A stretch of 52,782 nucleotides of DNA from Escherichia phage vB_EcoM_swi3. The notes beneath the pieces are model-generated. The model saw only the letters and a program-made list of their open reading frames with translations. It did not search any database and was not told where the DNA came from. Numbering within the stretch: position 1 is the first letter of the stretch; every line of letters begins with the position of its first letter. The position numbers and the translations under genes were made by a program. Shown here piece after piece: positions 3,356 through 52,503 of this stretch. The DNA lies in sequence record MT768059.1. One strand, written 5' to 3'.

Positions 3356-3450
3356 TTGATGTATCCTCGTTGATAGAATTTTTGATATGTGCCAATCCTT
3401 GGCAAGTAAGTCCAAACATGACAACTTTTGTCAAGTTGTCATGATTGAAA

Positions 3451-6256: not shown

Positions 6257-6972
6257 GCCCAGTATACAATACCTCAGTCACGCTGTCCGCAACCGTAGGG
6301 GACGTCAACAAGACAGTTACTGTGGGTTCAACTAACCCAAACCTGTCAGGTGAAGACCTGCTGCGCCTGGCCAAACGTGCTCTTGAAGATAATGAAGTGA
6401 CTGGTACTGAAGGCGTCAGCATTGAAATTAACGTCGAAGGATGTCCACACAGCATCAGTATTGCTACCTCTTCATTGCCGGATGATGAAACTCGTGAACA
6501 GCTGGAAACCAAAAAGTTCAACGATGAGCTGGAATATCGTACTGGTGAGATGTTCAGCAGTGCGTTAAACTGGTACTTGTGCAAGGCCTCGGGTTATACT
6601 GGTGCTCCTATGTCAGACCGCATGTTAGCTGATATGTCAGCTCGCGAAATTGCTAAAGGCTGGGCACATGTACAGATGCTGCAGGAGCATATCTGCAAAC
6701 TGGAAAGCTGCAATAAAGATGCGTCTGAGCTTATCACTGCCTATAAGCGACAGATTAACGACCTGCAGCAGTTGATGGGCAAACGTGCTGAAGAGTACGA
6801 GGCTGAGATTCGTAGCCTTAATGGTACAGCTGTTGCTAATAACCGTGCTTTCAGCGAAGAGCGTAAAGCGCTTATTGCCCAGCGTGACGCTGAAAAACGT
6901 CGTGCAGACGACCTGGCAGACCGTCTCAACTTTATCCGTAAGCATATGGATGCTATGGAAGGGGTAATCTGA
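6253..6972 (+). CDS. hypothetical protein with coiled-coil C-terminus
   Basis: ORF; start uncertain (6244 or 6253). Confidence 0.45.
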   Translation: MSPVYNTSVTLSATVGDVNKTVTVGSTNPNLSGEDLLRLAKRALEDNEVTGTEGVSIEINVEGCPHSISIATSSLPDDETREQLETKKFNDELEYRTGEMFSSALNWYLCKASGYTGAPMSDRMLADMSAREIAKGWAHVQMLQEHICKLESCNKDASELITAYKRQINDLQQLMGKRAEEYEAEIRSLNGTAVANNRAFSEERKALIAQRDAEKRRADDLADRLNFIRKHMDAMEGVI

Positions 6973-34548: not shown

Positions 34549-36516
34549 TTAGTGTGCCTCTGCCCAGTTACTTTCTATCTTAGCATCAGTAAGAACAGGT
34601 ACACGAAGCGGTAGTACAGTTTCCATGACCCGTACGAAATCATAGAATCCATCTTCTGCTTGCTTACCAGTTGGTAGAGAGAAGTTAAGCTCATCGTGTA
34701 CCGTCAGGCGAGGTACGCCAATCACGTCAAAGTAACCGTCTTCATACCCTTTCAGCATTGCAGACTTCATCTGGTCTGCTGACGACCCTTGCAGCACTCG
34801 GTTGATTGCTTTGTGGGTGTCTGCCAGTTTAATGTTTGGACCATACTCCTGACGTGCTTCTTCAAATGGTAAAGGCGTCTTCCCGAATCCACCACGTTTT
34901 GGTACCCATTTGTTGAACCACGTCTTCCGGCCCATAAATGTTTCTACATACCCCTGGCTATAACATAAATCTTCATAATGCTTCATGGTAGCACCAATGA
35001 ATGGTGCACCCTGATGGTACGCCTTCAGAACAGGTTCTGCTTCTTCAGGCGTCATTGCTAACTTACGGGCAAGAGCATTAAGCATCATGCCGTACAACAA
35101 ACCAAAGTTGATGGTCTTAGCCGGTTTACGCTCTATAACGTGACCTGAGGCTTCCTTGATAATATCGACCATAACATTGTGGTAATCTGCTTCCGGGTTA
35201 GCCGCGAAAATTGCTCGTAACTCATCAGCGCCCGGGCCGACTGCAAAATGCGCCATGAATCGATATTCAATTTGGGCGTAGTCTGCTGATCCCCATCTGT
35301 GTCCGACATCCGGTACGAAACAAGCACGAAGGAGTGGTCCCAGTATTTTGTGTCGAGACGGTATATTCTGCAGATTAGGGTCAGATGAGCTAAACCTACC
35401 ACTAACGGTTCCGCCGTCATCACCGCGCATTTGATGGAATTGACCGTGAAGGAAGCCATTTGTATTCATCCCCAATATATAGCCACGAATAAACGTGGAC
35501 TGGATTTTCTCATAAGACTTAATTTCAGACACCAGTTCCGCAAACGGATGGTGCAAGCCTGCTAAGAAGTCTGCCGTAAACGATGGATTGCCCGCCGCTG
35601 TTCTGAAGTACTCCAGACCTAAATGGTCAAATGCAAGAGCTAAGTCCGGACCTGAGTTAACGTTAATGTTAAAACCAATCTGGTCTTTAATCTGCTGGTG
35701 CATTTTCCTTATTTCAGCGCTAAGCGTATCATCCGCCTCTTTGGCTTTGTCAAGGTCAACACGCACACCTGCAAAACGCATCTTAAGCATTAATGGAATA
35801 AGCTTGCACTCCATATAGAATACGTCTGTTAAACACCAGCGACTTAACAATGGCCACTGGGCTTTGATAATGTGTATTGGTAAGTCGGCGTCAGATTCAG
35901 CATAGTAACCCACAAGACGAGGAGGCGTTTTGTAGATGTACTTTCTGGCTTCACCTGTTGGCTTACAGCCATAAGCATCTGAAATCCATTGGTACATCTC
36001 GGCTGAGTCTTTACCTTCGCCTACATACTTTCGTCCAAGTCCTTCAAGTGCAACACGCGCGCCTGGGTCGAGTAATGCTTCCGCGAATTGTACATCCATG
36101 CACAATCCTTTAACTTCCACGCCTTCTGCTGCAAGCCAGCCCAAGTCATATGTGATGTTAGCACCGACTTTAACTTGGTTAGGTCGCGAGAGTTCGAGCC
36201 GAAGCCAACCAAGTACTTCCTCAGCTGGAAGGTTATCCTCTTCGCCGAGCTCGTGTCTGATTGGGTAGTAAGCTTTGAAGCCGTTGTCCGTAGCGATACT
36301 AACTCCAACGATATGACCCTCCCTCCTGGCCCAACCACTACCATTTGTATCCATCCCTGGGTCGTATGTTTCACAGTCAAGACCGATAATCTTTGCAGAA
36401 GACAAGTCCGGGTAATGCGCGCGCGGCCGCCATCCAGTATCCCTGACGTATGGTATAGGACGGTTGATAGGTTTAACATTCTTTGCACCTTCGAAGCTAT
36501 CGAATAAAAAGCTCAT
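34549..36516 (-). CDS. DNA polymerase, family A, with 3'-5' exonuclease domain
   Basis: 655 aa; exo motif GLDCETYDP; Pol A motif A DYAQIEYR, motif B RKPAKTINFGLLYGM, motif C VHDEL. Confidence 0.9.
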   Translation of the reverse strand: MSFLFDSFEGAKNVKPINRPIPYVRDTGWRPRAHYPDLSSAKIIGLDCETYDPGMDTNGSGWARREGHIVGVSIATDNGFKAYYPIRHELGEEDNLPAEEVLGWLRLELSRPNQVKVGANITYDLGWLAAEGVEVKGLCMDVQFAEALLDPGARVALEGLGRKYVGEGKDSAEMYQWISDAYGCKPTGEARKYIYKTPPRLVGYYAESDADLPIHIIKAQWPLLSRWCLTDVFYMECKLIPLMLKMRFAGVRVDLDKAKEADDTLSAEIRKMHQQIKDQIGFNINVNSGPDLALAFDHLGLEYFRTAAGNPSFTADFLAGLHHPFAELVSEIKSYEKIQSTFIRGYILGMNTNGFLHGQFHQMRGDDGGTVSGRFSSSDPNLQNIPSRHKILGPLLRACFVPDVGHRWGSADYAQIEYRFMAHFAVGPGADELRAIFAANPEADYHNVMVDIIKEASGHVIERKPAKTINFGLLYGMMLNALARKLAMTPEEAEPVLKAYHQGAPFIGATMKHYEDLCYSQGYVETFMGRKTWFNKWVPKRGGFGKTPLPFEEARQEYGPNIKLADTHKAINRVLQGSSADQMKSAMLKGYEDGYFDVIGVPRLTVHDELNFSLPTGKQAEDGFYDFVRVMETVLPLRVPVLTDAKIESNWAEAH

Positions 36517-37511
36517 CAGTCCCCTCTAACATACGCAATTACAACTGTACGAGTTGAGTTTTCCATTTTGAGCGCCTGACTACCCAGTCCTATTCTTTCC
36601 ATGCCTTTAGCCAGTTTACTCATCTGACTAATAACACAGTTGAACGGTTTACTAAACTTAGTCGACTGGAACTTAATGTCGACGGACATCTTTGGAATAA
36701 TCTTATCTGGTAAGTCTGCCTTTGCAGTTGACTCGCCTGTTATCTCCAGAATAGCCTGACCTTCGTCGTACCCAGTAAGCTGGTCCATGACTTCCAGGAA
36801 CTCAGGAGTGATGGCCTGCATATCCATTTCCATATTGAAGAACTTCGATACGTCTGGCCATTTGGCTGCTAGTACCGGAGCATCCATCTGTACACCATCC
36901 GCAAAGCCGAAGAACATCTGGCCGCGGGCGTATCCTACACTTGTGGGTTCCATCTTCAGCTTAACCAGAGCCTCAAGCATTGGTTTGGCTATGGCACATT
37001 CAAATTCAAAATCTACGTTCAACTTCTCGCGTATCATATACTTACCGTTAGTGGCGTAAGCATAACCATCGCGCAGAAGTAAAGATGTCGCCCATACCTG
37101 CGGTGCTTCGTTAGGTACCCACTTGGCTAAGGCAGTTAATACCGGGAGTAATTCGCCATGCGCTGAATACCAGTTGTTAACTGTAGCAAGTGGCGGTATT
37201 GGTTCATTAAGCGCTTGCATTCTTGTTTTAAGTACACCTGCTGTGACTGTGAGGTTTCCAGCGGCTGTAATGTTAAAAGTAATCTGTTCAGTTCTTGCCG
37301 CATTAACGGCCTTACGAAATGATTCAGCATCCACTTGCAGGTCTGGAAATCCTTTACATGGCGCTCGTAGTAATACGTTCTTGTAGTATGAATGGATTGT
37401 TCCGTCTGCAATCCATATTTTGCCCATAAGACCACTATCAGTATACTTGATGGGACGAGCTTGTTGAACGGCAGTCTGTATTTGTTTGGTGTCATAGTTA
37501 AACTTGCTCAT
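36516..37511 (-). CDS. hypothetical protein (replication/modification accessory candidate)
   Basis: 331-aa ORF between polymerase and TS homolog; no motif recognised. Confidence 0.5.
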   Translation of the reverse strand: MSKFNYDTKQIQTAVQQARPIKYTDSGLMGKIWIADGTIHSYYKNVLLRAPCKGFPDLQVDAESFRKAVNAARTEQITFNITAAGNLTVTAGVLKTRMQALNEPIPPLATVNNWYSAHGELLPVLTALAKWVPNEAPQVWATSLLLRDGYAYATNGKYMIREKLNVDFEFECAIAKPMLEALVKLKMEPTSVGYARGQMFFGFADGVQMDAPVLAAKWPDVSKFFNMEMDMQAITPEFLEVMDQLTGYDEGQAILEITGESTAKADLPDKIIPKMSVDIKFQSTKFSKPFNCVISQMSKLAKGMERIGLGSQALKMENSTRTVVIAYVRGD

Positions 37512-37541
37512 AGTATAACGGGGCCGAAGCCCCGCTCCATC

Positions 37542-38426
37542 TTATACGGCCATTTGGAGTTTGATGTTTGGCATTGGTTTGTACTTCTCAACCATTGGCG
37601 TAACATCGGCAGGAGTGAAGTCAAACACTGACACGTCATAAATTGCATTAATGTCAGGACGACCTTCAAAGTTAGTGTCCAGTGTAGTATCAGAATTGCT
37701 TACGATACGTTGCAGGAAAATCTTTGCCGCATCGATATGATTCTGATAGATGTGATAATCACCCAGCGTAACAGTCATATCACCTACCCCAGTACCCAGC
37801 TCAGCAGCAATGGTAATCTGCAACATCTGATGCAACAGAATATCGTGAGGCAGACCAAGGATAACATCCGCGCTACGCATGTGGAACATCAGCTCTAATT
37901 CATTACGGTTGTTAATGAACAGCTGAAAACCATGGTAACAAGGCGGAAGGGCCATGGCGTCCATCTCTTGTGGGTTCCATGCCGTAATGTATGCCCGGCG
38001 GTCAGTAGGCTTAACCTTCAGCGTTTCAATAACGTCTTTAAGCTGGTTAGTAAGAACACCATTCTTATAGAATGGCTTAATCCATTGCACGCCGTACACA
38101 GGACCTAAGTCACGATTGTCTGGTGTACCCCAACGTTTGTTTGCATCCTGCAGGTTACCTTCCCACCAGTTGCAGCCAAAGCCTTTGAGTGTGTCGACGT
38201 TTGAAATGCCGTTGATAAAGCAGTAAAGCTCAGCAGCAACAGCTTTGATGTTAACAGGTTTAAATACCGGCACCATCAGTTTGTTGTCGTTAAAAGCCAG
38301 CTTAAACGCTGTACCAAAACAACGGCGTGTACCAACACCTGTACGGTCTACAACATCCTCGCCTTTACGCAGGATAAAAGAAATGATGTCGCTGTAAAGA
38401 GAATCGACAGTGCTGTATGTTTTCAT
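37542..38426 (-). CDS. thymidylate synthase-family enzyme with Asp at uracil-specifying position (putative dCMP C5-hydroxymethylase or -methyltransferase)
   Basis: 294 aa; DRTGVGT, DLGPVYG, catalytic-Cys motif ALPPCY, RSADVILGLPHD, GDYHIYQNH; ThyA N177 equivalent is D195 (codon at 37842..37844). Confidence 0.8.
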   Translation of the reverse strand: MKTYSTVDSLYSDIISFILRKGEDVVDRTGVGTRRCFGTAFKLAFNDNKLMVPVFKPVNIKAVAAELYCFINGISNVDTLKGFGCNWWEGNLQDANKRWGTPDNRDLGPVYGVQWIKPFYKNGVLTNQLKDVIETLKVKPTDRRAYITAWNPQEMDAMALPPCYHGFQLFINNRNELELMFHMRSADVILGLPHDILLHQMLQITIAAELGTGVGDMTVTLGDYHIYQNHIDAAKIFLQRIVSNSDTTLDTNFEGRPDINAIYDVSVFDFTPADVTPMVEKYKPMPNIKLQMAV

Positions 38427-39019
38427 TAAAACAGTTCCTTTTGAGCCGGGTTAACGTGTGCGTCGATGATGGCCTGGATGTCAGGTGCTTTCCATCCTTC
38501 AGGCTTAACAATATCCTGACCAGACTTATGCTTGCTGTTGCTTGCATCAGGCTTAGCGCGTTCTTTCGCCATGTTAGCAGCCTGTACAGCATCCCATGCT
38601 GCGTCAAGTGGCCAGTTGTTGTTTGCACACCAGGTAATCAGGTGGATAATTAACTGGGCCAGACGGTCGCAATGAGTGTCTTCAGTATCCTTAACGTATA
38701 CAATAAGGCCATCAGCATCGAAACGGTCCATAAATCCGCATGGCGTAGTTAACAGAATAGGATACTCAAATTCGTTGGTGAACCATGCAGTCTGGTCATA
38801 CAGGTATAACGTACCTGCAGCGATGTAAATTAAATCTACAATACCGTCTAAGAATCCAGCTTTATCGCCGTCCTTCTTAGCTTGTTTAATTTCTTCCATC
38901 TCCTCAATAAGACGGTCGTAGCGAAGCTTGAACTCAGGTTTACCGCCTTGACTAACAGGCTTGAGGTCAAACTTCTCATGAAAAGCGGTAACGCCTGCAG
39001 CAATTTTACTGAATCGCAT
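38426..39019 (-). CDS. putative MazG-like (all-alpha) nucleoside triphosphate pyrophosphohydrolase
   Basis: ~197 aa from ATG at 39019 after GGAG; EExxE motif (LIEEMEEI) and downstream acidic helix (DGIVDLIY). Confidence 0.45.
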   Translation of the reverse strand: MRFSKIAAGVTAFHEKFDLKPVSQGGKPEFKLRYDRLIEEMEEIKQAKKDGDKAGFLDGIVDLIYIAAGTLYLYDQTAWFTNEFEYPILLTTPCGFMDRFDADGLIVYVKDTEDTHCDRLAQLIIHLITWCANNNWPLDAAWDAVQAANMAKERAKPDASNSKHKSGQDIVKPEGWKAPDIQAIIDAHVNPAQKELF

Positions 39020-39404
39020 TTCGTAACTCCTTACAAACAGTTTCGATAAACTTACGTTTAATTTCTGTAGACCAGATAACATGACGAGCCTGTTCTAAAG
39101 TGTCCCAACGTTCTTTACCCACAGGAAAGGGAACAATGAAAAGGCCGGTACGGGATATGCGCTTGATAAACGGGAATTTACATCGCATGGTTGTTTCAAA
39201 CTTGATAAAGTTGGTTTGCACTTCGCGTGTAAACTTGACCTTATCAAATTCATGTTCAAGAGTTTGAGCAAGGTTGCATACTTCCTGGAAAGAAGATGTG
39301 GGTAAGTAATCTTCGCGGCCGACGGTGTTCACGTAGTCGATTTGGCCTTCGAGTCGAAGTATCCAAATCCTGTAATAAGCTTCAGCAACACGTTGTAGGT
39401 TCAT
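39006..39404 (-). CDS. hypothetical protein
   Basis: 132-aa ORF downstream of promoter 39431..39459. Confidence 0.45.
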   Translation of the reverse strand: MNLQRVAEAYYRIWILRLEGQIDYVNTVGREDYLPTSSFQEVCNLAQTLEHEFDKVKFTREVQTNFIKFETTMRCKFPFIKRISRTGLFIVPFPVGKERWDTLEQARHVIWSTEIKRKFIETVCKELRNAIQ

Positions 39405-39430
39405 TGTATCTCTCCTCTAAAAGATAACTT

Positions 39431-39459
39431 ATTATACCACATCACTCTCTAGTGGTAAA
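39431..39459 (-). promoter_or_regulatory. sigma70-like promoter with extended -10 (TTTACC-N17-TATAAT, TGG upstream of -10)
   Basis: Reverse complement reads cTTTACCACtagagagtgatgTGGTATAAT. Confidence 0.5.
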
Positions 39460-39480
39460 GCACTTTTTACGCTTCTGGTA

Positions 39481-39515
39481 AAATAAAAAGGACCAGCGTT
39501 AACTGGTCCTTTTGG
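39481..39515 (-). terminator. rho-independent terminator
   Basis: GGACCAG-cgttaa-CTGGTCC hairpin; minus strand reads TTTTTATTT after the stem. Confidence 0.6.
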
Positions 39516-40079
39516 CAGGGTGGCGTAAGGAGATACAAGGCATCGTAACTATGCAACCAGGCAGCGCATATGAGATTGGCCAAAAGACTTACCATTTTAA
39601 TCCCCGCGACGAGACGAAAGGAGGTGTTATCGAGTAGCCAATCACATATGCGTTACTTGCTGTGTGCTCTTACCGCGGAAAGTATAGAGCGTTGCACTTA
39701 TCACACCGATGGAGTGGCAAAAGCACACAGCGAGTACAACCTTAGTTGTGGTGTCTTAGCACCTGAGTTATTGTGGATAACCTGCACCCGACGGGTGTCA
39801 AAAAGATACGCCAAAACACCACAACTAAAATTGTGACCGCCGTCTACACCAGGCGCCTGGGGTCAAGGTAGCGAGCCAATACCCTTTTCAGCGTCGGAGG
39901 AATCGAACCTCACACATCACGGCTTTTACCAAATCTCGGTCAGCGAGCAGAATTGAACTGCATTCACTGGACACCCTCACTGTTTCAACACACCAGGCTT
40001 AATTGATTGTTGATAAGAAGAGAGATGTAAGGATGTCCATTGAATGCACCTCCGTAGAGGTGCGTTCAGATCAGCGCTA

Positions 40080-40547
40080 TTATTCAGCAACTTCTTCGTT
40101 GTCGCCTTCGATCGCGCCAGCCAGTTTAGCAGCTTCAGCTTTAGCAGCTTCTGCTTTCTGGCGAGCTTTTTCAGCTTTCTCTTCAGCTTTGCGAATCTGC
40201 TCAGCAGCTTTCGCTTCGGCTTTTTCAGCTTTGATGCGAGCACGCTCTTCAGCTTTACGCTGTTTTTCAGCGGCTTTAGCAGCATCGCGTTCTGCTTTAG
40301 CGGTATCAACACGCTTAGCCAGAACCTTACCAGTGGCTTTACGCCAGTAGGTCAGCTGGGAAGAAACAGTACCACGGGACATTTCGGTAGTGGCAACAAC
40401 TTCGTCCATAACGTCAGAGCTGGACTTGCCTTCTTCATGGGCTTTATCAGCCAGGTCCCATACATAACGTGCACCAGTACCAGCTGCCGGATACAGTACG
40501 CCGTTAACTTCTTCTTTACCAGTTACAAAAGTCAGTTTCTCGCTCAT
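40080..40547 (-). CDS. protein with Ala/Lys/Glu-rich repetitive C-terminal tail (histone H1-like low complexity)
   Basis: ATG at 40547 after GAGGAA; C-terminal ~70 aa of AKAEK/AEKA-type repeats with acidic end. Confidence 0.5.
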   Translation of the reverse strand: MSEKLTFVTGKEEVNGVLYPAAGTGARYVWDLADKAHEEGKSSSDVMDEVVATTEMSRGTVSSQLTYWRKATGKVLAKRVDTAKAERDAAKAAEKQRKAEERARIKAEKAEAKAAEQIRKAEEKAEKARQKAEAAKAEAAKLAGAIEGDNEEVAE

Positions 40548-40653
40548 AATTTTTTCCTCGTCTACAGGGCTTAATGTTTGTTCGTTACGTGAGTTAATAT
40601 ACGTCATTTAAAAGAGTGTGTAAACACCTTTTTTAAACTTTTTTCATTAGTGT

Positions 40654-40875
40654 CTAGAAAGGCACATCATAGTCAAAAAGTTTACATCCGGAAGACAGGA
40701 CTGCCGGCGGTGGTGTTTTGCCTCCGGATAACAGGCAACCTCCTGCCTGAAAACTACGGCAGTTCGCACAGCTCATATCCTGCAAGTATATAATAAGCTG
40801 TCGGCGAACATGCCGGGGTAAAGCTTTAGCCTGGGTTGCTACCCGTTCAAATAGTTCTCTGTCATCGAGCGCCAT
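40654..40875 (-). CDS. hypothetical small Cys-containing protein
   Basis: 73-aa ORF with CANC...GGC...GC. Confidence 0.35.
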   Translation of the reverse strand: MALDDRELFERVATQAKALPRHVRRQLIIYLQDMSCANCRSFQAGGCLLSGGKTPPPAVLSSGCKLFDYDVPF

Positions 40876-42532
40876 AACCGTTTCCCCAGTCGTAGTTCAT
40901 GATTTGTGGGTAGGGTCGTTTAATCCATACCTTGATGCGCTTAGGAATAGCCAGCTCACCCTTACGGCGAATAAACTCATCGCATGTTTCAGGCGGTTCT
41001 GTTCCTGCAGCATTACGCCACCAGGCATCTGCCATTTGCTTAGCATTGCCATGGGCCTCTATATTTACCCAGGTTGTATACACTTCCAGGTTTGAGTAAT
41101 ACACAACCTTTATACTGTCAGGTCGTCCCTGCTTCTGGAATAAAGAATAGTTTACCAGCGTAACATCTTTATCCACAACACGAAGCTGACCGTTAGTCAT
41201 TACCTCTTCTTCTGATGAAGTGAAGGCAATGGCAGGTCCGTTAACTGTAAACTCAAATTCATGTCCGCACATCGGATATACACCATTCTCGTCTGGCGTA
41301 CTTCCTTTAGCCGGATGCTTACATGTACGGGCTGCATAGCCACTTACCTGGTGACAGATAGGGCACTCTTTACCGCCAGGTGTTTTCTCTGACCGTTTCT
41401 TTTTCTTCTTACCAAGACGAGGTGGAACAGCCGGGTCGTCAATAGGCCCAAGGTCAATGGTGTTAGATGTAAAGTCCATAACAAGACAGTCATGCTTGCC
41501 AGGCGCTGTACGTAATCCTCGACCAAGTATCTGCACCCACAAAGCAACAGACGTGGACGGGCGCAAGATGCCGAGCATATCAATCTCAGGATAGTCAAAT
41601 CCTGTAGTCAATACGTTTACGTTTACACAGACCCGTGCTCGTCCGCTTGTAAACTCTTCCAGTGCGGCTTCACGTTCTTTCTTTGTAAGACCGCCATGCA
41701 CAACTACAGTCTGCCACCCTCGCAGATTAAATTCGTCTGCTATGTTGTGGGCGTGCTCAACACTTGTGGCAAATACAAGAACGTGGTTCCTGTCTTTACC
41801 GTAGTGCATCATCTCACGAATAGCCGCGACTGTTATACTATGCTGGTTGGCTACCTTCTCAAGCTCTGACGGGATGTAGTCACCCATCCTTTCGCCAACA
41901 TTACTGGTGTCAATCTTGGTTAACACTTTCTTGTTGACCAGGCGCGACAGGAAGCCTTCATTTACCAGTCGGGTGAATGCGTCAGGTGTTGTAAGGTCAT
42001 AGCAGATGTCGGTAAATATACCACAGTCCAGCAAGTGACCACCTGCCAGGCGATACGGAGTTGCTGTGAGTCCTGTTACCTTTACCTTAGGATTAAGCTC
42101 TTTGAAGTGAGCAATAACCTTACGGTATGTTGTTTCAGACTTCTCAGGAACAAGATGGGCTTCGTCAATGAATATAAGATTGAACTTACCTGCTTCTTCC
42201 AGGTTCTTAATAATTGACTGTACAGATGCTACAACGATACGGCCTGAAAAGTCTTTATGTCCTGCACCTGAAGAGTATATTGATACTGGTGCTTGTGGCC
42301 AGTGACGAACAATCGCTTTGGCGTCTTGTTCAACCAGCTCCTTGACATGTGTCAATATAAGAATGCGCTGACGGGGATAGCTGGTAAGAATATCCTTCAT
42401 CAGCATACCAAGCACAGGTGATTTACCTGAACCTGTCGGCATGACAATAAGTGGATTACCACTATAAGAATTGAAGTACGACCACCAGGCTGTGACCGCT
42501 TCTTGTTGATACCAGCGAGCTTCAAAAGCCAT
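40862..42532 (-). CDS. superfamily 2 DNA helicase (DEAH box)
   Basis: 556 aa; Walker A PTGSGKS, DEAH (FIDEAHLV), C-terminal Cys pairs (CPICHQ ... CKHP). Confidence 0.8.
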   Translation of the reverse strand: MAFEARWYQQEAVTAWWSYFNSYSGNPLIVMPTGSGKSPVLGMLMKDILTSYPRQRILILTHVKELVEQDAKAIVRHWPQAPVSIYSSGAGHKDFSGRIVVASVQSIIKNLEEAGKFNLIFIDEAHLVPEKSETTYRKVIAHFKELNPKVKVTGLTATPYRLAGGHLLDCGIFTDICYDLTTPDAFTRLVNEGFLSRLVNKKVLTKIDTSNVGERMGDYIPSELEKVANQHSITVAAIREMMHYGKDRNHVLVFATSVEHAHNIADEFNLRGWQTVVVHGGLTKKEREAALEEFTSGRARVCVNVNVLTTGFDYPEIDMLGILRPSTSVALWVQILGRGLRTAPGKHDCLVMDFTSNTIDLGPIDDPAVPPRLGKKKKKRSEKTPGGKECPICHQVSGYAARTCKHPAKGSTPDENGVYPMCGHEFEFTVNGPAIAFTSSEEEVMTNGQLRVVDKDVTLVNYSLFQKQGRPDSIKVVYYSNLEVYTTWVNIEAHGNAKQMADAWWRNAAGTEPPETCDEFIRRKGELAIPKRIKVWIKRPYPQIMNYDWGNGYGAR

Positions 42533-42590: not shown

Positions 42591-43469
42591 TTATTTTAAG
42601 GAAAGTTTAACGGGCTTCTCATCCTGCGGGAAGACATCAGCAGGGCGATAATCATCACAAGCTGCTAATTGCTCTTCGATTGTTTCGAGTTCTTTCTGGT
42701 GCTTGTTGCAATACCACACTTTGCCCTGAAGCGGTTTACTGTAATGGCAGGTTCTGCAGTTCCTGTCTGGCATTGCCCCTTTGTGGCACAGGTGATGGTA
42801 TTCGCACATCCCTGGTTTGCACTCCCACCAAATAGGCGATTCAGAAATCTTCGGCATATCCAAACCAGATTCCGCATATACAACAGCCTCCGCTTTACTC
42901 AGTTGTATGTCGCTTTCCAGTAAGTCAATCTCGACCACTTCAAAATACATCTCGTCAGTGTTCTTATTGATTGCAATGTACACAGCTTGATTCAGCTTAA
43001 GCTTCCGCATGTATACCTGCATCTGGGCGTAGTGTACCGGCTTACTTGCTTTAACAGACTTGAGCTTGACTAACTCCTTAAACGACTTATCGCCATGCGT
43101 CTTGAACTCAGCAAGTGCCCATACGCCTTTGTATTTAATTACACAGTCACAAGACCCAGAGAAGATGTCATTGAATTCGTGTATGCGCCACTGCTTACCA
43201 GTCTTGGGATTGACGTCCAGCACTTCGTCACATACGGTGCGAAGCCACTTTACAATTCTGCTTTCTTCAAGGTTACCACGTTCAAACAGACGAAGTTGCT
43301 TAGCCGAAAACTTCTCCTTGAACGACCAGTGCAGAACGTGCCAAAGATAGCGATAGCAGTTGTGTCCTATCTGCGATGCTCCAAGATGCCCGCGTCGTTC
43401 TTCTCTTTCGTGGGCTTCGACTATCTTGATGTCAATACGTTTCTGCAGGTCGTCAAACGGACTTGGCAT
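42591..43469 (-). CDS. PD-(D/E)XK nuclease, Cas4/RecB-like, with C-terminal Cys cluster
   Basis: Start at ATG 43469 after GGAG; motif D ... EFK (DCVIKYKGVWALAEFK); C-terminal CKPGMCEYHHLCHK ... CRTCH. Confidence 0.55.
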   Translation of the reverse strand: MPSPFDDLQKRIDIKIVEAHEREERRGHLGASQIGHNCYRYLWHVLHWSFKEKFSAKQLRLFERGNLEESRIVKWLRTVCDEVLDVNPKTGKQWRIHEFNDIFSGSCDCVIKYKGVWALAEFKTHGDKSFKELVKLKSVKASKPVHYAQMQVYMRKLKLNQAVYIAINKNTDEMYFEVVEIDLLESDIQLSKAEAVVYAESGLDMPKISESPIWWECKPGMCEYHHLCHKGAMPDRNCRTCHYSKPLQGKVWYCNKHQKELETIEEQLAACDDYRPADVFPQDEKPVKLSLK

Positions 43470-43938
43470 TGTTAAACTCCTCAACGCTGAATTCATCGTA
43501 TACAATATTATGTGCCCACAAATGGGCGACGGCATTTGCCATACTGTCTTTCCATTTGGATTGTGAAGCTGTATGAGCCAATGCAACTACCCGAACCAGG
43601 TTAAGGTTGGCTATCAGCATATCTGCACAATGTTCGCACGGCGGGTAGGTTATGTAGATGGTAACCGGGCCTAATGAAGGAGTGTCTAACTCTCTCCTTA
43701 TATTAGCTAAGGTGTTTATCTCGCTATGAATAGTTAGAGCGTTCTTAAGGCTATTAGGCACTATTCTTATAGAGTCTAACTGCGTAGGCAGACCATTATA
43801 TCCAGTGGAAATAATACGCTTGTTCTGGTCCACAAGAACGCTACCGACTTGACGTTTCGGGTCCTTCGACCAGCTCGCAACTTCACAAGCTATGCGCATA
43901 AACCGCCTGTCCCACTTGTCCATCTTCTTCTTTTGCAT
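43453..43938 (-). CDS. dCMP deaminase
   Basis: 161 aa; zinc-binding HSE and PCEHC motifs of CMP/dCMP deaminases. Confidence 0.8.
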   Translation of the reverse strand: MQKKKMDKWDRRFMRIACEVASWSKDPKRQVGSVLVDQNKRIISTGYNGLPTQLDSIRIVPNSLKNALTIHSEINTLANIRRELDTPSLGPVTIYITYPPCEHCADMLIANLNLVRVVALAHTASQSKWKDSMANAVAHLWAHNIVYDEFSVEEFNNAKSV

Positions 43939-46304: not shown

Positions 46305-47210
46305 TTACAGCAGTTCTGCTTTCAATGCAGCGATACCATCGAGCAATGCTTTGATGTCCGGATTAGATGCCGCCAGGTCAGCAACAACTGACTGACGACG
46401 ACGTTCCAGCTCTTTCTCAACTTCCAGGTCGAGGCGTGCTGACGCTTCACGCAGTAAGTCTTCAACCTGCTGACGACGCTGATACTTGTTAAAGTCAGGC
46501 ACATCAACCAGCCATTTGAGAGTTGCAGTGTTGTAGCCAGAAGTATTGGCTGCACTTACAGACACAACATCAACGAGCTTGGTGCCATTCAGCTCCGGAT
46601 AGTTAACATTGCGAACGTCAACAACCGCTTTGTCACCTACACTTACTTTGCCGATGTACTTGTAAGTGTACACACGACCAGTCGGTTCAAACTTAACACC
46701 AACAAACTTCAGTTTGTCGTCTGCAATAACCTCTTCCTCAACTTTGAAGTTGATTGCAGTGTTCTTGACAGGTGCAGCCGCTTTGAGCTTAGCGACCATG
46801 TACTGTTCTGAATGAGACGGACGGCACAGACGGAAGACGTCCTCATTGTAGGTCAGCCAGTTACCGGTCTCATCCACGCATGCAATCTGATTAGTGCCAT
46901 CCAGTGAACGAACACCCGGGCGATTCTTCTCAATACGATACAGCTTACCTTCTTTCAGGTTAGCGTAAGAACGGCGGGCGATACCCCAGTTGTGTTTTTC
47001 AGATTCGTACTTAGCGAAACGGTCAACGCTGAAGTTCTGCTTCAGACCACGGTCGTCGATTACCCATAAGTTATCGTAAGCACCGCCGAAAGAGCCGAGG
47101 TTGGCATACACTTTGCCCTGCGTCAACAGGGAAGTGTTTCCCTCGTCAACACAGATAACAAAACCCAGAGCTTCGTGTGCTTTACCGCTGCGGTCAAATA
47201 CTGTAGTCAT
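46305..47210 (-). CDS. hypothetical protein
   Basis: 301-aa ORF with coiled-coil C-terminus. Confidence 0.5.
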   Translation of the reverse strand: MTTVFDRSGKAHEALGFVICVDEGNTSLLTQGKVYANLGSFGGAYDNLWVIDDRGLKQNFSVDRFAKYESEKHNWGIARRSYANLKEGKLYRIEKNRPGVRSLDGTNQIACVDETGNWLTYNEDVFRLCRPSHSEQYMVAKLKAAAPVKNTAINFKVEEEVIADDKLKFVGVKFEPTGRVYTYKYIGKVSVGDKAVVDVRNVNYPELNGTKLVDVVSVSAANTSGYNTATLKWLVDVPDFNKYQRRQQVEDLLREASARLDLEVEKELERRRQSVVADLAASNPDIKALLDGIAALKAELL

Positions 47211-49661: not shown

Positions 49662-49994
49662 ATGATAAAGCCAAAACTGTTGCGGCATATTCGCAACGGT
49701 ATTAAGCTACTCGCCGAAGGCAATGAATATGCCTGCAAGCAACGCGGTATTACAAAAGTCGGCCTGTTCAATAAAGAGTTACCGACTCGCTACTTTACCA
49801 AATCACCATTAACACTCGTACCTGCAGCGGAGTATTATAAAGACCCCGAAGCAGCTCGGGCTAAAATCAAGGAAGGTCTTGACCGACTTGTAGAGGAAGG
49901 CTATTTGACAGTACGTCAACACACTGAATCATCTTATTACTACAAGCCAACTTCTAAGGTAACCAGCAATGACAATGACGAGTCAGCCGAGTGA
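49662..49994 (+). CDS. hypothetical protein
   Basis: 110-aa ORF upstream of primase gene. Confidence 0.45.
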   Translation: MIKPKLLRHIRNGIKLLAEGNEYACKQRGITKVGLFNKELPTRYFTKSPLTLVPAAEYYKDPEAARAKIKEGLDRLVEEGYLTVRQHTESSYYYKPTSKVTSNDNDESAE

Positions 49995-52503
49995 TATTCT
50001 TGGTCTGAAATACTTTAAGCCAGAAGGGATTCCCCAAGTCTTCAAAGATATGAAGCGCTGGGCTATTTTTGAGCTGACGTACGAAGACGAGACCCTCGAA
50101 GTTCAGTCCAAACCTAAGAAACCTGCAAGAGCGCCATCAGGCCGTTCCTTCAGCACAACTGTGCCTGAAGAGTGGATGACTTTCGACGACGCCCTGACAC
50201 GTTGTATTCGCAATCGTGAAATGAAGATTAAAGCTGTACAGGGTAATATCACCTTTGTGCCGGCTTTGATTGTTCCTCGCCAGTGGTACTTTGTTGACCT
50301 GGACAACCATGATGATAATCCAGACATTGAAGCAACCCACAAAGCGATAATTGAGGGGACCCGTGGTGCTTATGCTGAGACGTCAATCTCTGGCAAAGGG
50401 CAACACATTGCAATCCCTTTACCCTGGACTGCAGCAACATCTAAAGAGAAAGACGAACAGCTGGACATCAAAATCCAGAAGGCTGAGATGTTCCTGGTAA
50501 TGACAGGCAATGTATTGAGCGAGTTCAATGCTAATCCTGTTTCAGCCCGTGAATGGCATGCAGCAATTGAGAAGTTCTTTCTTGAAGCAAGCGCACCTGA
50601 TATTGATGTTGAGTTTGAGCAAGACGAAGACCGTGGCGAAGAGTATGACAAAGAGCTGTACGAACAGTTAGCCGACAATACTCGCTGGGCTTTAGAGCAC
50701 TATCTGAATGAGCATGCACCAGACGGTGTTGGTGTAAGTAATGACGGTTCTGAACGTTTGAGCCGCATACTCAAAGACTTGCTTCGTGTAACCCGTAACT
50801 ACGAAGTTACACAACGCATCTTCATGGCCAGCAAAGCTGCAGCATATGAAGGTCGCAGACCAAGTCGACACAACCTGTCTGTTGATAAGTACCATCAGTG
50901 GTTCAGTCGTGTCGGTAAGACTGTGCTGAAAGAAATGCAACGTGACGGCTTATTCGTTAAGACCAAGTTTGCTCTTGACATCAACAAAGAGTTAGCCAAG
51001 AATTCAGGTGTCTCCCTGGCTGAGAATGTTGAGTTCAAGGTCAACGATGACATTCTGCCTTCTGATGTATTCGTCAGAACGGCCCCGTCTGGGTTTAAAC
51101 GGCTTATTGCTGAGATACAGGATAACATATCTCCGGCTAACAGGGTTAACGACTATGCCATCGGCACAGCTCTTAACATCCTGAGCAACTGCGCTGGTCG
51201 CAAGTATGTTTGTCCAGTAGGCGGTCATGCTAACTTCCTGGTAACCAACATCATTCTTGTGGGTGGTTCGTCAATCGGTAAATCGCTGTATACCGAGTTG
51301 TTCCCACAAATCCAGGCAAGTGTGCCAGACACATCGCCTATCAGTCTTAACCGTATCCCAAGGGAACAGACTTTTGCAACCAGGACGTTTGCTGAACTGA
51401 TGTCCAACCCGTCATACCATTCAGTCCAGTTGTTCTACCCTGAATTTGGTCTGGCTTTAGGTTCTGGCTTACGCATGAATCCTAACAACCCGGACAACTT
51501 TCAGAAAGCTCTGATGGACGCTTCAACCAAGCGTAAGGTTGGTGGTATACTGACAGGTATCAAACGTGCTAATGCTGACAATGATGTCAAGACAGTAAGC
51601 GAACCATGCTACTCTATCCTGGGCGACTCAACTCAAGAGCTTATCCTTGACAACACCCGGAAGCAAGACTTCTCAAGTGGCTTTTTGCCCCGCTTCCTGT
51701 TCATCCCTAACTATGAACGAGCGGAGTTTGCCAAACCTGAGAAGGTAGGACGTCGCCAGCAGATTCGCCGTACTCAATTCTCCAAAGAGTTGATTGAGAA
51801 GCTGGAAGCAATCGCTTATGTGAATGCTATCCCGCCTAACGGTAAACTAAGGCACGACCCGATTCCTATTTACGACGAATCGGACGATGATGACTTCCTG
51901 TACGAGTACCAGTGCAATATTAATGACATGCGCAAGTATTACAGGGATAACGAAGTAGCATCTGCCTTTGTGGGCCGAATGGGTGAGTATGTATTCAATA
52001 TAGCAGCACTGATTGGATTACTCGACAACTGGGATACTCCTGTAATGACCAGGGACAACATCGAATGGGCTTACAAATATGTGCTTCGTTGTATAACCGC
52101 TTGGGTCAATAACACAAGCAGGATAGTCGCACCACCAACTACCAACGCCGAAGTAGTGGACGGCTTCCTAAAAGTCTACAGGGACATTTTGGCCCTTTAC
52201 GCCAAAAGCGGATGGAACGGTATTGTTAAGCATTATCCTGAGGGTGTTGTGAGAAGTATCCGGGAAGAACACCTCCAGATGAATGGTTTAAGCATATATG
52301 CTATTCGTCAGTCTTTGAGCTGGTTTAAATCGAATTACGGTTTTAATATCACAGCTAACAACAAAGTCATTGACGGTATGCTGCAGGATATGATTGACCA
52401 GGACTATTTAGCAGTTCAAATATATAAGCCCACAAGAGGCCGATCTGCTAACATTTACTGCCTGACAGAGCGAGGATATGACACTGCTAAGAAGTTAAAA
52501 TAA
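49969..52503 (+). CDS. primase-polymerase (AEP-type) fused to P-loop NTPase/helicase domain
   Basis: 844 aa; N-terminal YFVDLDNHDD and SISGKGQHIAIPL (prim-pol DxD and sGxGxH-like); C-terminal Walker A VGGSSIGKS. Confidence 0.65.
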   Translation: MTMTSQPSDILGLKYFKPEGIPQVFKDMKRWAIFELTYEDETLEVQSKPKKPARAPSGRSFSTTVPEEWMTFDDALTRCIRNREMKIKAVQGNITFVPALIVPRQWYFVDLDNHDDNPDIEATHKAIIEGTRGAYAETSISGKGQHIAIPLPWTAATSKEKDEQLDIKIQKAEMFLVMTGNVLSEFNANPVSAREWHAAIEKFFLEASAPDIDVEFEQDEDRGEEYDKELYEQLADNTRWALEHYLNEHAPDGVGVSNDGSERLSRILKDLLRVTRNYEVTQRIFMASKAAAYEGRRPSRHNLSVDKYHQWFSRVGKTVLKEMQRDGLFVKTKFALDINKELAKNSGVSLAENVEFKVNDDILPSDVFVRTAPSGFKRLIAEIQDNISPANRVNDYAIGTALNILSNCAGRKYVCPVGGHANFLVTNIILVGGSSIGKSLYTELFPQIQASVPDTSPISLNRIPREQTFATRTFAELMSNPSYHSVQLFYPEFGLALGSGLRMNPNNPDNFQKALMDASTKRKVGGILTGIKRANADNDVKTVSEPCYSILGDSTQELILDNTRKQDFSSGFLPRFLFIPNYERAEFAKPEKVGRRQQIRRTQFSKELIEKLEAIAYVNAIPPNGKLRHDPIPIYDESDDDDFLYEYQCNINDMRKYYRDNEVASAFVGRMGEYVFNIAALIGLLDNWDTPVMTRDNIEWAYKYVLRCITAWVNNTSRIVAPPTTNAEVVDGFLKVYRDILALYAKSGWNGIVKHYPEGVVRSIREEHLQMNGLSIYAIRQSLSWFKSNYGFNITANNKVIDGMLQDMIDQDYLAVQIYKPTRGRSANIYCLTERGYDTAKKLK

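What the first reader, a model, noticed from the sequence alone, without database searches (positions are those of the whole stretch)
37542..39019. Thymidylate-synthase homolog with Asp at the uracil-specifying position, next to a MazG-like pyrophosphatase: likely cytosine C5 modification of phage DNA
The 294-aa protein has the ThyA fold signature including the catalytic-Cys motif (ALPPCY). Where E. coli ThyA has LGLPFN (Asn177, which reads the uracil O4/N3), this protein has LGLPHD (Asp195, codon 37842..37844). Asp at this position is the hallmark of T4 dCMP hydroxymethylase (Asp179), and the ThyA N177D mutation switches specificity to dCMP. The adjacent gene carries an EExxE motif typical of all-alpha NTP pyrophosphatases such as T4 dCTPase. 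Together this suggests the phage replaces or derivatises cytosine (5-hmC, 5-mC or a further modified form). No glycosyltransferase was recognised, so the final base is unknown and may be unusual.
Basis: partly seen in the sequence, partly recalled or inferred. Interest (0 to 1): 0.85.

Follow-up and report, generated by a model that had tools for sequence, protein, structure and literature searches.

The report
Phage dCMP methylase for 5-methylcytosine DNA
This Salmonella/E. coli phage carries a thymidylate-synthase relative re-tuned to methylate dCMP, with helper enzymes like those of phage Xp12, so it most likely builds its DNA with 5-methylcytosine instead of cytosine; this would explain the "unknown modification" that makes DNA of related phages resist restriction enzymes.

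Summary
Window 37542..38426(-) encodes a 294-aa ThyA-family protein (Pfam E 2e-62). HMMER, MAFFT and profile-profile alignments all put Asp195 (codon 37842..37844) opposite E. coli Asn177. A MazG-like all-alpha NTP pyrophosphatase (38426..39019) lies just upstream and overlaps it by 1 nt.

The window is a Rosemountvirus genome (98-99% identical to LSE7621, SD350 and BP63).

The enzyme keeps all the reductive-methylation residues of thymidylate synthase:
- Leu143 and Asp169;
- the folate-contact residues Trp80 and Trp83;
- the TS-type C-terminus.

It lacks the acidic residue 143 of T4-type hydroxymethylases and the D169N change of 5-hydroxy-dCMP synthases.

The phage also encodes a DHFR-like protein, a dNMP-kinase-like protein and a dCMP-deaminase-family protein. 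Four of these genes have homologues in the gene cluster around the Xp12 dCMP methylase (Xp12 DNA carries 5mC in place of C). No glycosyltransferase, TET-like enzyme or DNA methyltransferase was found.

Published digests of relatives fit 5mC. S144 DNA is cut only at A/T-only sites. fHy-Eco03 DNA is cut only by ScaI, which cuts 5mC DNA partially but not 5hmC DNA.

Best reading: an Xp12-type pathway replacing C with 5mC, which probably arose independently. It is a new member of a known kind. No chemistry was tested here.

The parts
37542..38426 (-). ThyA-family enzyme, 294 aa; predicted deoxycytidylate C5-methyltransferase (dCMP + CH2-THF -> 5-methyl-dCMP + DHF)
   Evidence: Pfam PF00303 E 2.3e-62. 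hhalign against a canonical-TS profile gives E 3.9e-52.
37842..37844 (-). Asp195 codon (GAT), equivalent to E. coli ThyA Asn177; the pyrimidine-specificity residue
   Evidence: Asp is present in 29 of 31 clade clusters.
37938..37940 (-). Cys163 codon, equivalent to the catalytic Cys146
   Evidence: ALPPCY aligned with ALAPCH/ALPPCH. Coordinates are computed from the residue number.
37947..37949 (-). Leu160 codon, equivalent to Leu143. This residue is retained; it is Asp/Glu in hydroxymethylases and 5-hydroxy-dCMP synthases.
   Evidence: The rule comes from PMC13326640.
37866..37868 (-). Asp187 codon, equivalent to Asp169. This residue is retained; it is Asn in 5-hydroxy-dCMP synthases.
   Evidence: The rule comes from PMC13326640.
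38426..39019 (-). All-alpha NTP pyrophosphohydrolase (MazG/HisE/dimeric-dUTPase superfamily), 197 aa; predicted dCTPase supplying dCMP and clearing dCTP. Its stop overlaps the ThyA start (TAATG).
38834..38905 (-). Metal-binding motif of the pyrophosphatase: E39 E40 x x E43 ... D58 x x x D62
   Evidence: These columns are invariant in 26 homologues. Coordinates are computed from residue numbers.
43453..43938 (-). dCMP-deaminase-family protein, 161 aa; predicted to deaminate 5-methyl-dC nucleotides to make thymidine nucleotides (or dCMP to dUMP)
   Evidence: Pfam dCMP_cyt_deam_1 E 2.4e-21. 34% identity to the Xp12 deaminase, E 9e-24. Synteny is conserved in relatives whose ThyA homologue is 50% identical. 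The proposed role comes from bioRxiv 10.1101/2024.12.05.627091.
5079..5753 (+). DHFR-like protein, 224 aa; predicted to recycle the dihydrofolate that a methyl-transferring (not hydroxymethylating) ThyA homologue produces
   Evidence: Pfam DHFR_1 29.1 bits against a cut-off of 25. phrog_316 E 3e-26. Weak match to the Xp12 DHFR, E 2e-5.
5750..6256 (+). P-loop dNMP/thymidylate-kinase-like protein, 168 aa; predicted to convert 5-methyl-dCMP to 5-methyl-dCDP
   Evidence: phrog_761 'thymidylate kinase' E 4e-27. The Pfam dNK and Thymidylate_kin matches are below their cut-offs.

Best explanation
The window is a Rosemountvirus genome carrying a pre-replicative pathway of the Xp12 type that replaces cytosine with 5-methylcytosine.

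**Shown here**
- The gene at 37542..38426 is a full-length thymidylate-synthase-fold enzyme.
- Its pyrimidine-reading Asn177 is Asp. His147 is Tyr and Gln165 is Met.
- Every residue needed for covalent catalysis, folate binding and hydride transfer is kept.

**Inferred**
1. The enzyme methylates dCMP with CH2-THF, giving 5-methyl-dCMP and dihydrofolate.
2. The translationally coupled upstream all-alpha pyrophosphatase hydrolyses dCTP to dCMP. This feeds the methylase and keeps unmodified dCTP away from the phage PolA.
3. The DHFR-like protein regenerates tetrahydrofolate.
4. The kinase-like protein, together with host NDP kinase, raises 5-methyl-dCMP to the triphosphate, which the phage polymerase incorporates.
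5. The dCMP-deaminase-family protein diverts part of the 5-methyl-dC nucleotide pool to thymidine nucleotides. The phage has no canonical TS of its own.
6. The resulting 5mC DNA blocks most type II restriction enzymes whose sites contain G/C.
For: **Substrate switch**
- Asp195 aligns with Asn177 in three independent alignments. It is conserved in 29 of 31 clade clusters.
- N177D converts TS into a dCMP methylase. This is established mutagenesis, cited in PMC8670742 and PMC13326640.
- Positions 147 and 177 are the two that separate modified-cytosine from unmodified contigs in the MetaGPA study. Both are changed here.
- Gln165->Met is shared with T4 gp42 and RB69 gp48. Xp12 has Leu at this position.

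**Methyl rather than hydroxymethyl or hydroxyl**
- Leu143 and Asp169 are kept, while T4 gp42 has Asp143, and RB69 gp48 has Glu143 and Asn169 (rules).
- The C-terminus (...PNIKLQMAV) aligns to the end of canonical TS. T4 gp42 and RB69 gp48 are truncated there.
- A DHFR-like gene is present and this is the only ThyA-family gene found.
- No glycosyltransferase, TET-like, DNA-methyltransferase or deazaguanine gene appeared in Pfam/PHROG scans of the replication and early-region ORFs I submitted.

**Same parts list as Xp12, whose TS homologue makes 5mdCMP**
- BLASTP against the Xp12 gene cluster gives TS E 2e-26, neighbouring hydrolase E 3e-11, deaminase E 9e-24 and DHFR E 2e-5.
- The preprint lists TS, PRA-PH pyrophosphohydrolase and PolA domains among the top neighbours of dCMP-deaminase genes in its metavirome contigs. 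TS co-occurrence was 70% in contigs predicted to carry modified cytosine and 6% in unmodified ones.
- The order deaminase, helicase, MazG-like, TS, clamp, PolA is conserved in relatives whose ThyA homologue is only 50-54% identical.

**Pyrophosphatase**
- The EExxE...DxxxD motif is invariant.

**Experimental data on relatives**
- S144 DNA is cut only by SspI and PacI (PMC7432712).
- fHy-Eco03, a Rosemountvirus, is cut only by ScaI among the enzymes tried. The named ones are NcoI, NotI, ScaI, SphI, AflII, EagI, Sau3AI and SmaI (PMC8145870).
- On reference DNAs, ScaI gives partial cleavage of Xp12 (5mC) but none of T4gt (5hmC). The other seven named enzymes are all blocked on Xp12 (PMC7653180 supplement).
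Against: - No enzyme activity or nucleoside composition was measured for this phage or any relative. The restriction data show only that G/C-containing sites are protected.
- The ScaI argument rests on one enzyme: complete digestion in fHy-Eco03 against 'partial' on Xp12.
- The fHy-Eco03 authors stated that known methylation sensitivities did not explain their pattern.
- The protein is not an orthologue of the Xp12 enzyme (28% identity, 92 bits, against 136-167 bits to canonical TS). Function is therefore inferred from residues, not from close homology to a tested enzyme.
- In my alignment Xp12 itself has Asn, not a bulky hydrophobic residue, at column 143, inside an insertion. The Leu143 rule is therefore imperfect.
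- Fully 5mC DNA should be a target of McrBC, McrA and Mrr. One relative, CF2, lists E. coli MG1655 as host in its record, though the paper says it was grown on strain CP9. No anti-Mcr gene was identified.
- Several early genes remain of unknown function, so a further post-replicative step cannot be excluded.
Confidence: 0.68

Rival explanations
1. 5-methylcytosine is only an intermediate. The dCMP methylase works as proposed, but one or more unannotated phage proteins convert 5mC in DNA, or 5-methyl-dC nucleotides, into a further modified base that has not been described.
For: - Several early-region proteins have no detectable family. Examples are 46305..47210 (301 aa), 2786..3424, 6244..6972, 39006..39404 and the HExxH protein at 4589..5086.
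- The fHy-Eco03 authors considered known methylation sensitivities insufficient to explain their digests.
- Phages are known that oxidise 5mC in DNA and then hypermodify it (PMC8256090, listed).
Against: - No TET/JBP-like dioxygenase, glycosyltransferase, kinase-on-DNA or amino-acid ligase family was detected.
- ScaI cleavage of fHy-Eco03 DNA matches 5mC and not bulkier adducts: T4gt and T4 DNA are resistant.
- Illumina sequencing of dozens of isolates appears unproblematic.
Confidence: 0.1
2. The enzyme is a dCMP hydroxymethylase of the T4 gp42 type, and the DNA carries 5-hydroxymethylcytosine, possibly derivatised further.
For: - Asp at position 177 and Met at 165 are shared with T4 gp42.
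- The enzyme is paired with a dCTPase-like gene, as in T4 (gene 56).
- Restriction resistance at G/C sites fits 5hmC equally well for most enzymes.
Against: - Residue 143 is Leu, not Asp or Glu (rule).
- The intact TS C-terminus and the folate-contact residues Trp80 and Trp83 are kept, whereas gp42 is truncated and has Val at 83.
- Similarity to gp42 is only 35 bits, against 136-167 bits to true TS.
- A DHFR would be unnecessary, because hydroxymethylation returns THF.
- No glucosyl- or other glycosyltransferase was found.
- 5hmC DNA is fully resistant to ScaI, but fHy-Eco03 DNA is cut by it.
Confidence: 0.07
3. The methylase and deaminase together are only an alternative route to thymidylate (dCMP -> 5-methyl-dCMP -> dTMP). 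5mC is not incorporated, and the restriction resistance of relatives comes from an unrelated, unidentified system.
For: - The phage has no canonical TS. The deaminase family includes enzymes that turn 5-methyl-dC nucleotides into thymidine nucleotides.
- Xp12 labelling data, cited, show cytosine label entering thymine.
Against: - In Xp12 the same gene set gives full 5mC replacement as well as dTTP supply.
- A dedicated dCTPase-like enzyme, translationally coupled to the methylase, makes most sense if dCTP has to be excluded from DNA.
- No other candidate modification genes were found, yet relatives' DNA is clearly protected.
Confidence: 0.07
4. The protein is an ordinary thymidylate synthase acting on dUMP despite the Asp, and the gene pair is routine nucleotide metabolism, as public annotations say ('thymidylate synthase').
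For: - Every public annotation calls it thymidylate synthase.
- It passes the TIGR03284 cut-off (172 bits against 108).
- Overall it is closest to canonical TS.
- Two clade members (P0013, P0020) have Asn at position 177.
Against: - It scores below the curated cut-offs of the other seven NCBIfam TS models that it hits, for example 187 bits against 327.
- Asn177, His147 and Gln165 are invariant in the canonical set. All three are replaced here and are conserved as Asp/Tyr/Met across the clade.
- N177D mutants prefer dCMP.
- This reading leaves the DNA modification seen in relatives unexplained.
Confidence: 0.05

Closest known systems
Xanthomonas phage Xp12 deoxycytidylate 5-methyltransferase pathway (TS homologue QNN97214 with neighbouring hydrolase, dCMP-deaminase-family protein and DHFR; C fully replaced by 5mC). 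Pseudomonas phage PaMx74 is the other phage the preprint names as fully 5mC-substituted.
   Same: - Asp at position 177, Asp169 kept, and His147 and Gln165 replaced.
- Homologous MazG-like hydrolase next to the TS gene, plus a homologous deaminase and a DHFR.
- A PolA-type replication module.
- Relatives' DNA resists G/C-site restriction enzymes with an Xp12-like profile.
   Different: - Only 28% identity. The window enzyme is nearer to canonical TS than to the Xp12 enzyme, so the Asp was probably acquired independently.
- It keeps Leu143 and the canonical C-terminus, whereas Xp12 has an insertion before the catalytic Cys and a different C-terminus.
- The genes are dispersed (DHFR and kinase about 32 kb away, deaminase 5 kb away) instead of forming one cluster.
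- It is a myovirus of Enterobacteriaceae, whose hosts often carry McrBC, not a siphovirus of Xanthomonas.
Bacteriophage T4 gp42 dCMP hydroxymethylase with gp56 dCTPase
   Same: - A ThyA-fold enzyme with Asp at the Asn177 position and Met at 165.
- Pairing with an all-alpha pyrimidine dNTP pyrophosphatase.
- The same pre-replicative logic: exclude dCTP and supply the modified dCTP.
   Different: - Asp143, a truncated C-terminus and no hydride transfer in gp42, against Leu143 and a full TS C-terminus here.
- Similarity is 35 bits.
- tblastn of the window's MazG-like protein against the T4 segment containing gene 56 found nothing at E <= 1e-3.
- No glucosyltransferases here.
E. coli ThyA N177D and L. 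casei TS N229D engineered mutants (dCMP methylases)
   Same: A canonical TS scaffold with the single specificity switch Asn->Asp. The product is 5-methyl-dCMP (cited).
   Different: The natural enzyme carries additional conserved changes around the pyrimidine 4-position (H147Y, Q165M, F176H). These presumably optimise catalysis with dCMP. None of this was tested here.
RB69 gp48 / DLP3 gp80 5-hydroxy-dCMP synthases (PMC13326640)
   Same: ThyA homologues with Asp177 acting on dCMP.
   Different: They carry D169N and L143E and use a flavin. The window protein has Asp169 and Leu143.

Membership tests
Thymidylate synthase superfamily (Pfam PF00303, ThyA fold) | Full-length match to the family profile above the curated cut-off | tested here: met
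   211 bits against a cut-off of 24.3, covering profile positions 3-266 of 266. hhalign against a canonical-TS profile gives E 3.9e-52.
Thymidylate synthase superfamily (Pfam PF00303, ThyA fold) | Catalytic Cys146 and the phosphate-binding residues Arg21, Arg126, Arg127, Arg166 and Ser167 | tested here: met
   All are present.
Canonical thymidylate synthase (dUMP -> dTMP) | Asn177, His147 and Gln165 around the uracil O4/N3 | tested here: not met
   The residues here are Asp, Tyr and Met. All three are invariant in the canonical set. The protein scores below the cut-offs of seven of the eight NCBIfam TS models it hits.
Deoxycytidylate C5-methyltransferase (Xp12 type; natural counterpart of TS N177D) | Asp at the position of Asn177 | tested here: met
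   Asp195. Conserved in 29 of 31 clade clusters.
Deoxycytidylate C5-methyltransferase (Xp12 type; natural counterpart of TS N177D) | Reductive-methylation machinery retained: Leu143 (water exclusion), Asp169, Trp80, Trp83, Tyr94 and the C-terminal residue | tested here: met
   All are retained. Caveat: in my alignment Xp12 itself shows Asn at column 143, inside an insertion.
Deoxycytidylate C5-methyltransferase (Xp12 type; natural counterpart of TS N177D) | Accessory genes: dCTPase-like pyrophosphatase, DHFR, dCMP-deaminase-family protein | tested here: met
   Each is homologous to its Xp12 counterpart.
Deoxycytidylate C5-methyltransferase (Xp12 type; natural counterpart of TS N177D) | Production of 5-methyl-dCMP from dCMP, and 5mC replacing C in virion DNA | not testable with these tools
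   The only evidence is indirect: restriction profiles of relatives compared with Xp12 and T4gt.
Deoxycytidylate C5-methyltransferase (Xp12 type; natural counterpart of TS N177D) | Orthology to the Xp12 or PaMx74 enzyme | tested here: not met
   92 bits and 28% identity to Xp12, against 136-167 bits to canonical TS. It works like the Xp12 enzyme but is not its orthologue. PaMx74 was not compared.
dCMP hydroxymethylase (T4 gp42 type) | Acidic residue at position 143, and loss of the TS C-terminal closure and hydride transfer | tested here: not met
   Leu at 143 and a full-length TS C-terminus.
5-hydroxy-dCMP synthase (RB69 gp48 type) | Asn at the position of Asp169 | tested here: not met
   Asp187, equivalent to Asp169.
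All-alpha NTP pyrophosphohydrolase superfamily (MazG / HisE / dimeric dUTPase-dCTPase) | Profile match, the acidic EExxE...DxxD metal motif, and the all-helical fold | tested here: met
All-alpha NTP pyrophosphohydrolase superfamily (MazG / HisE / dimeric dUTPase-dCTPase) | Specificity for dCTP over 5-methyl-dCTP | not testable with these tools
   Inferred only from gene pairing and the Xp12 and T4 analogies.

The most novel reading that the evidence does not exclude
The virion base is not plain 5mC. One possibility is that the clade-specific active-site changes (H147Y, Q165M, F176H) give a different C5 product. Another is that one of the unannotated early proteins converts 5mC into a modification not yet described. 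This would also explain how these phages grow on enterobacteria that carry McrBC, McrA or Mrr.
Probability: 0.1. Interest if true: 0.8.

Novelty: new member of a known kind. Interest (0 to 1): 0.45.

Why it matters
**An open question in published work.** Rosemountvirus and Loughboroughvirus phages are repeatedly isolated as biocontrol and therapy candidates against Salmonella and E. coli. This region has near-identical matches (54 covering at least 80% of it) in 59 records of the phage collection searched. Two papers reported that their DNA carries an unidentified modification, and all public annotations call this gene an ordinary thymidylate synthase. Assigning the modification to an Xp12-type 5mC pathway gives a specific prediction that can be tested cheaply.

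**Practical consequences.**
- It affects the choice of cloning and engineering enzymes and of library-preparation methods.
- It should be allowed for when 5mC is called from sequencing data on samples containing these phages.
- It bears on host range, because type IV systems such as McrBC target 5mC DNA.

**Wider interest.** As far as I know, and I did not survey this, these would be the first E. coli/Salmonella phages reported with cytosine wholesale replaced by 5mC. The enzyme would also be a natural, apparently independent re-run of the classic N177D specificity switch on an otherwise canonical TS scaffold.

Tried and rejected
- **Literature.** I searched on Rosemountvirus, Loughboroughvirus, individual phage names and dCMP-methylase terms. 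No paper in the library identifies the base or reassigns the gene. PMC13390438, PMC7503781, PMC10844046 and PMC7232530 had nothing relevant.
- **T4-type hydroxymethylase and RB69-type hydroxylase.** Both rejected on residues 143 and 169 and on the C-terminus.
- **Orthology to the Xp12 enzyme.** Rejected on bit scores.
- **Hidden modification enzymes.** Pfam and PHROG scans of about 27 replication and early-region ORFs found no glycosyltransferase, TET-like, DNA-methyltransferase or 7-deazaguanine gene. The structural-gene region was not scanned.
- **Genome-wide palindrome avoidance as a test of protection.** Palindromes containing C/G and A/T-only palindromes are similarly represented (0.89 against 0.92-0.96). 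This is uninformative apart from the GATC and GATATC outliers.
- **CF2 host field (MG1655) as evidence against 5mC.** Inconclusive, because the paper says CF2 was propagated on strain CP9.
- **ThyA structure model.** Not built, because the tools return no residue-level superposition. Profile-profile alignment was used instead.
Full report
**1. What is in the window**

The window is an essentially complete Rosemountvirus-type myophage genome. Region 36500..40700 is 98-99% identical to Salmonella phage LSE7621, Escherichia phage vB_EcoM_SD350, BP63 and dozens of others. Gene order is collinear with SD350.

The flagged region sits in the leftward replication module. In transcription order this reads helicase (40862..42532), small unknown genes, MazG-like gene (38426..39019), ThyA homologue (37542..38426), sliding-clamp-like gene (36516..37511, phrog_947) and PolA (34549..36516).

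**2.

- The 294-aa product matches Pfam Thymidylat_synt end to end at E 2.3e-62.
- ALPPCY gives Cys163 and LGLPHD gives Asp195.
- Three alignment methods place Asp195 on E. coli Asn177: phmmer against M. tuberculosis ThyA, MAFFT with E. coli ThyA and hhalign of a clade profile against a canonical-TS profile (probability 100%, E 3.9e-52).
- The local context is too similar for the column to be in doubt: HMRSADVILGLPHDI against YQRSADIFLGVPFNI.
- A search of 5.8 billion proteins finds a tight clade of 31 clusters at 50-99% identity, mostly on phage-sized contigs of up to 54 kb. Similarity then drops straight to about 37%, where the cellular ThyA proteins begin. Asp is present in 29 of the 31 clusters, so it is a selected feature.

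**3. What kind of ThyA homologue**

Recent experimental work gives residue rules, in E. coli numbering:
- N177D marks dCMP as substrate.
- A bulky hydrophobic Leu143 goes with methyl products, and Asp or Glu at 143 with hydroxymethyl products (PMC13326640).
- D169N marks flavin-dependent 5-hydroxy-dCMP synthases.
- Positions 147 and 177 are the two that discriminate contigs with modified cytosine from unmodified ones in the MetaGPA metagenome association study (PMC8670742).

I aligned the window protein with E. coli ThyA, the Xp12 enzyme, T4 gp42 and RB69 gp48, fetched (alignment).

| Enzyme | Product | 143 | 147 | 165 | 169 | 176 | 177 | C-terminus |
|---|---|---|---|---|---|---|---|---|
| Window protein | predicted 5-methyl-dCMP | Leu | Tyr | Met | Asp | His | Asp | full TS-type (...PNIKLQMAV) |
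| E. coli ThyA | dTMP | Leu | His | Gln | Asp | Phe | Asn | full (...GIKAPVAI) |
| Xp12 TS homologue | 5-methyl-dCMP (verified) | Asn (in an insertion) | Pro | Leu | Asp | Tyr | Asp | different |
| T4 gp42 | 5-hydroxymethyl-dCMP | Asp | Thr | Met | Asp | Asn | Asp | truncated |
| RB69 gp48 | 5-hydroxy-dCMP | Glu | Thr | Met | Asn | Leu | Asp | truncated |

The window protein also keeps Arg21, Glu58, Trp80, Trp83, Tyr94, Arg126/127, Cys146, Arg166, Ser167, Gly173, His207 and Tyr209.

So it combines the dCMP signature (177, 147, 165) with an intact reductive-methylation apparatus. That is the profile of a dCMP methylase: the natural counterpart of the N177D mutant.

By bit score it is nearer to canonical TS (136-167) than to Xp12 (92), RB69 gp48 (47) or T4 gp42 (35). 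It is therefore a separate lineage, and the Asp was probably acquired independently.

**4. The partner gene**

- The start at 39019 has a GGAG Shine-Dalgarno sequence and agrees with annotated relatives at 197 aa.
- Its TAA stop overlaps the ThyA ATG (TAATG). The same abutting arrangement is kept in relatives whose ThyA homologue is only 50-54% identical.
- It passes the Pfam PRA-PH cut-off. E39-E40-x-x-E43 and D58/D62 are invariant across 26 homologues.
- It is homologous to the Xp12 'HAD-superfamily hydrolase' encoded directly next to the Xp12 TS homologue (E 3e-11; also recovered).
- A dCTPase role is an inference from this pairing.

**5. The rest of the pathway**

Elsewhere the window encodes:
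- a DHFR-like protein (5079..5753; Pfam 29.1 bits against 25; phrog_316 E 3e-26);
- an overlapping P-loop thymidylate/dNMP-kinase-like protein (5750..6256; phrog_761 E 4e-27);
- a dCMP-deaminase-family protein (43453..43938; Pfam E 2.4e-21).

The deaminase is 34% identical to the Xp12 deaminase (E 9e-24). Xp12 carries hydrolase, TS, deaminase and DHFR as one block.

The preprint 10.1101/2024.12.05.627091 reports the following:
- dCMP-deaminase genes on contigs predicted to carry modified cytosine lie next to a TS gene in 70% of cases, against 6% on unmodified contigs. The top neighbouring domains overall include PRA-PH and PolA domains.
- The Xp12 enzyme and five of seven tested TS homologues, all predicted from the position-177 residue to act on dCMP, make 5-methyl-dCMP.
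- The associated deaminase converts 5-methyl-dCTP to dTTP.

A DHFR is meaningful here. Only methyl transfer oxidises the folate to dihydrofolate, and this is the only ThyA-family gene found in the genome.

Pfam and PHROG scans of about 27 replication and early-region ORFs found no glycosyltransferase, TET-like dioxygenase, DNA methyltransferase or deazaguanine gene.

**6. Experimental data on relatives**

- Loughboroughvirus S144 DNA was cut only by the A/T-only enzymes SspI and PacI. The authors concluded that cytosine is modified but found no responsible gene (PMC7432712).
- Rosemountvirus fHy-Eco03 DNA was cut only by ScaI among the enzymes tried. The modification was called unknown (PMC8145870).
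- In the systematic survey of PMC7653180, ScaI gives partial cleavage of Xp12 (5mC) DNA and none of T4gt (5hmC) DNA. The T4 (glucosyl-5hmC) sheet has a blank ScaI entry; the paper counts unlisted enzymes as resistant.
- In the same survey NcoI, NotI, SphI, AflII, EagI, Sau3AI, SmaI and XhoI are all blocked on Xp12.

Both published profiles therefore fit 5mC, and the ScaI result argues against 5hmC. This is suggestive, not decisive.

**7. Mechanism, with status of each step**

Shown here:
- fold, residues, gene pairing and synteny;
- homology to the Xp12 gene set.

Inferred:
- dCTP goes to dCMP (pyrophosphatase);
- dCMP plus CH2-THF goes to 5-methyl-dCMP plus DHF (ThyA homologue);
- DHF goes back to THF (DHFR-like protein);
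- 5-methyl-dCMP goes to the di- and triphosphate (phage kinase plus host Ndk);
- PolA incorporates it;
- part of the pool is deaminated to thymidine nucleotides.

I put 0.68 on this reading.

Rivals:
- 5mC further modified by unknown genes, 0.10;
- T4-like hydroxymethylation, 0.07;
- a thymidylate bypass with no incorporation of 5mC, 0.07;
- ordinary TS, 0.05.

**8. Weak points**

- Nothing biochemical was measured.
- The enzyme is not orthologous to a tested one.
- Xp12 itself does not show a hydrophobic residue at column 143 in my alignment.
- E. coli K-12-type McrBC, McrA and Mrr should attack 5mC DNA, yet no counter-defence gene was recognised. The MG1655 host field of CF2 is contradicted by its paper.

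**9. Novelty**

- The kind of system is known (Xp12; PaMx74 is named; the N177D literature).
- In the searchable literature it has not been tied to Rosemountvirus or Loughboroughvirus. There the gene is annotated as thymidylate synthase and the modification is called unknown.
- This is a new member of a known kind, of moderate interest, with a cheap decisive experiment (nucleoside LC-MS).

Noticed in passing
proteins P0013 and P0020 (relatives; contigs of 1.0-1.6 kb): Two members of the same ThyA clade are 53-55% identical to the window protein and keep Tyr147, Met165 and His176. They nevertheless carry Asn at position 177, with Glu at 144 (ALEPC) and Lys at 127. They may have reverted to dUMP, or have a different chemistry.
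   Followed up: no
window, whole sequence: GATC is strongly depleted: 28 observed against 160-204 expected. GATATC (EcoRV) is absent against 11-15 expected. These are the most avoided 4-bp and 6-bp palindromes. MboI and DpnII still cut 5mC Xp12 DNA, and EcoRV cuts 5hmC T4gt DNA. The remaining site avoidance therefore falls at sites that C5 modification appears not to protect (EcoRV could not be tested on 5mC DNA, since Xp12 has no site). GATC avoidance is, however, common in enterobacterial phages anyway.
   Followed up: partly
window 4589..5086 (+): A 165-aa protein of unknown function (phrog_1365) carries an HEGIH (HExxH) metal-binding-type motif. It is the first gene of a tightly overlapping four-gene block with the DHFR-like gene, the kinase-like gene and an unknown 242-aa protein (6244..6972). 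It could be another nucleotide-metabolism component.
   Followed up: no
window 40080..40607 (-): A 175-aa protein (phrog_28664, unknown function) has a highly charged Lys/Ala/Glu-rich C-terminal half (AKAERDAAKAAEKQRKAEERARIKAEKAEAKAAEQIRKAEEKAEKARQKAEAAKAEAAK). It lies between the helicase gene and the pyrophosphatase/ThyA pair. A counterpart in a distant relative has a weak CAF1A_acidic Pfam hit.
   Followed up: no
public records KY608966.1 and PP583539.1 (L008 for CF2): Escherichia phage CF2 is a 53-kb genome highly similar to this window. Its record is labelled UNVERIFIED and filed under Tequatrovirus, and it lists MG1655 as host, although its paper says it was grown on strain CP9. A record named 'Listeria phage 220426122051' is 97.7% identical to this enterobacterial phage, so its host label is doubtful.
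   Followed up: partly
window 49969..52503 (+): An 844-aa protein has a below-threshold DUF3987 match (23.2 bits against 27) in the position of a primase/helicase-like replication protein. ZCSE2, a published relative, annotates what appears to be the equivalent gene as 'anaerobic NTP reductase small subunit', which looks like a mis-annotation.
   Followed up: no
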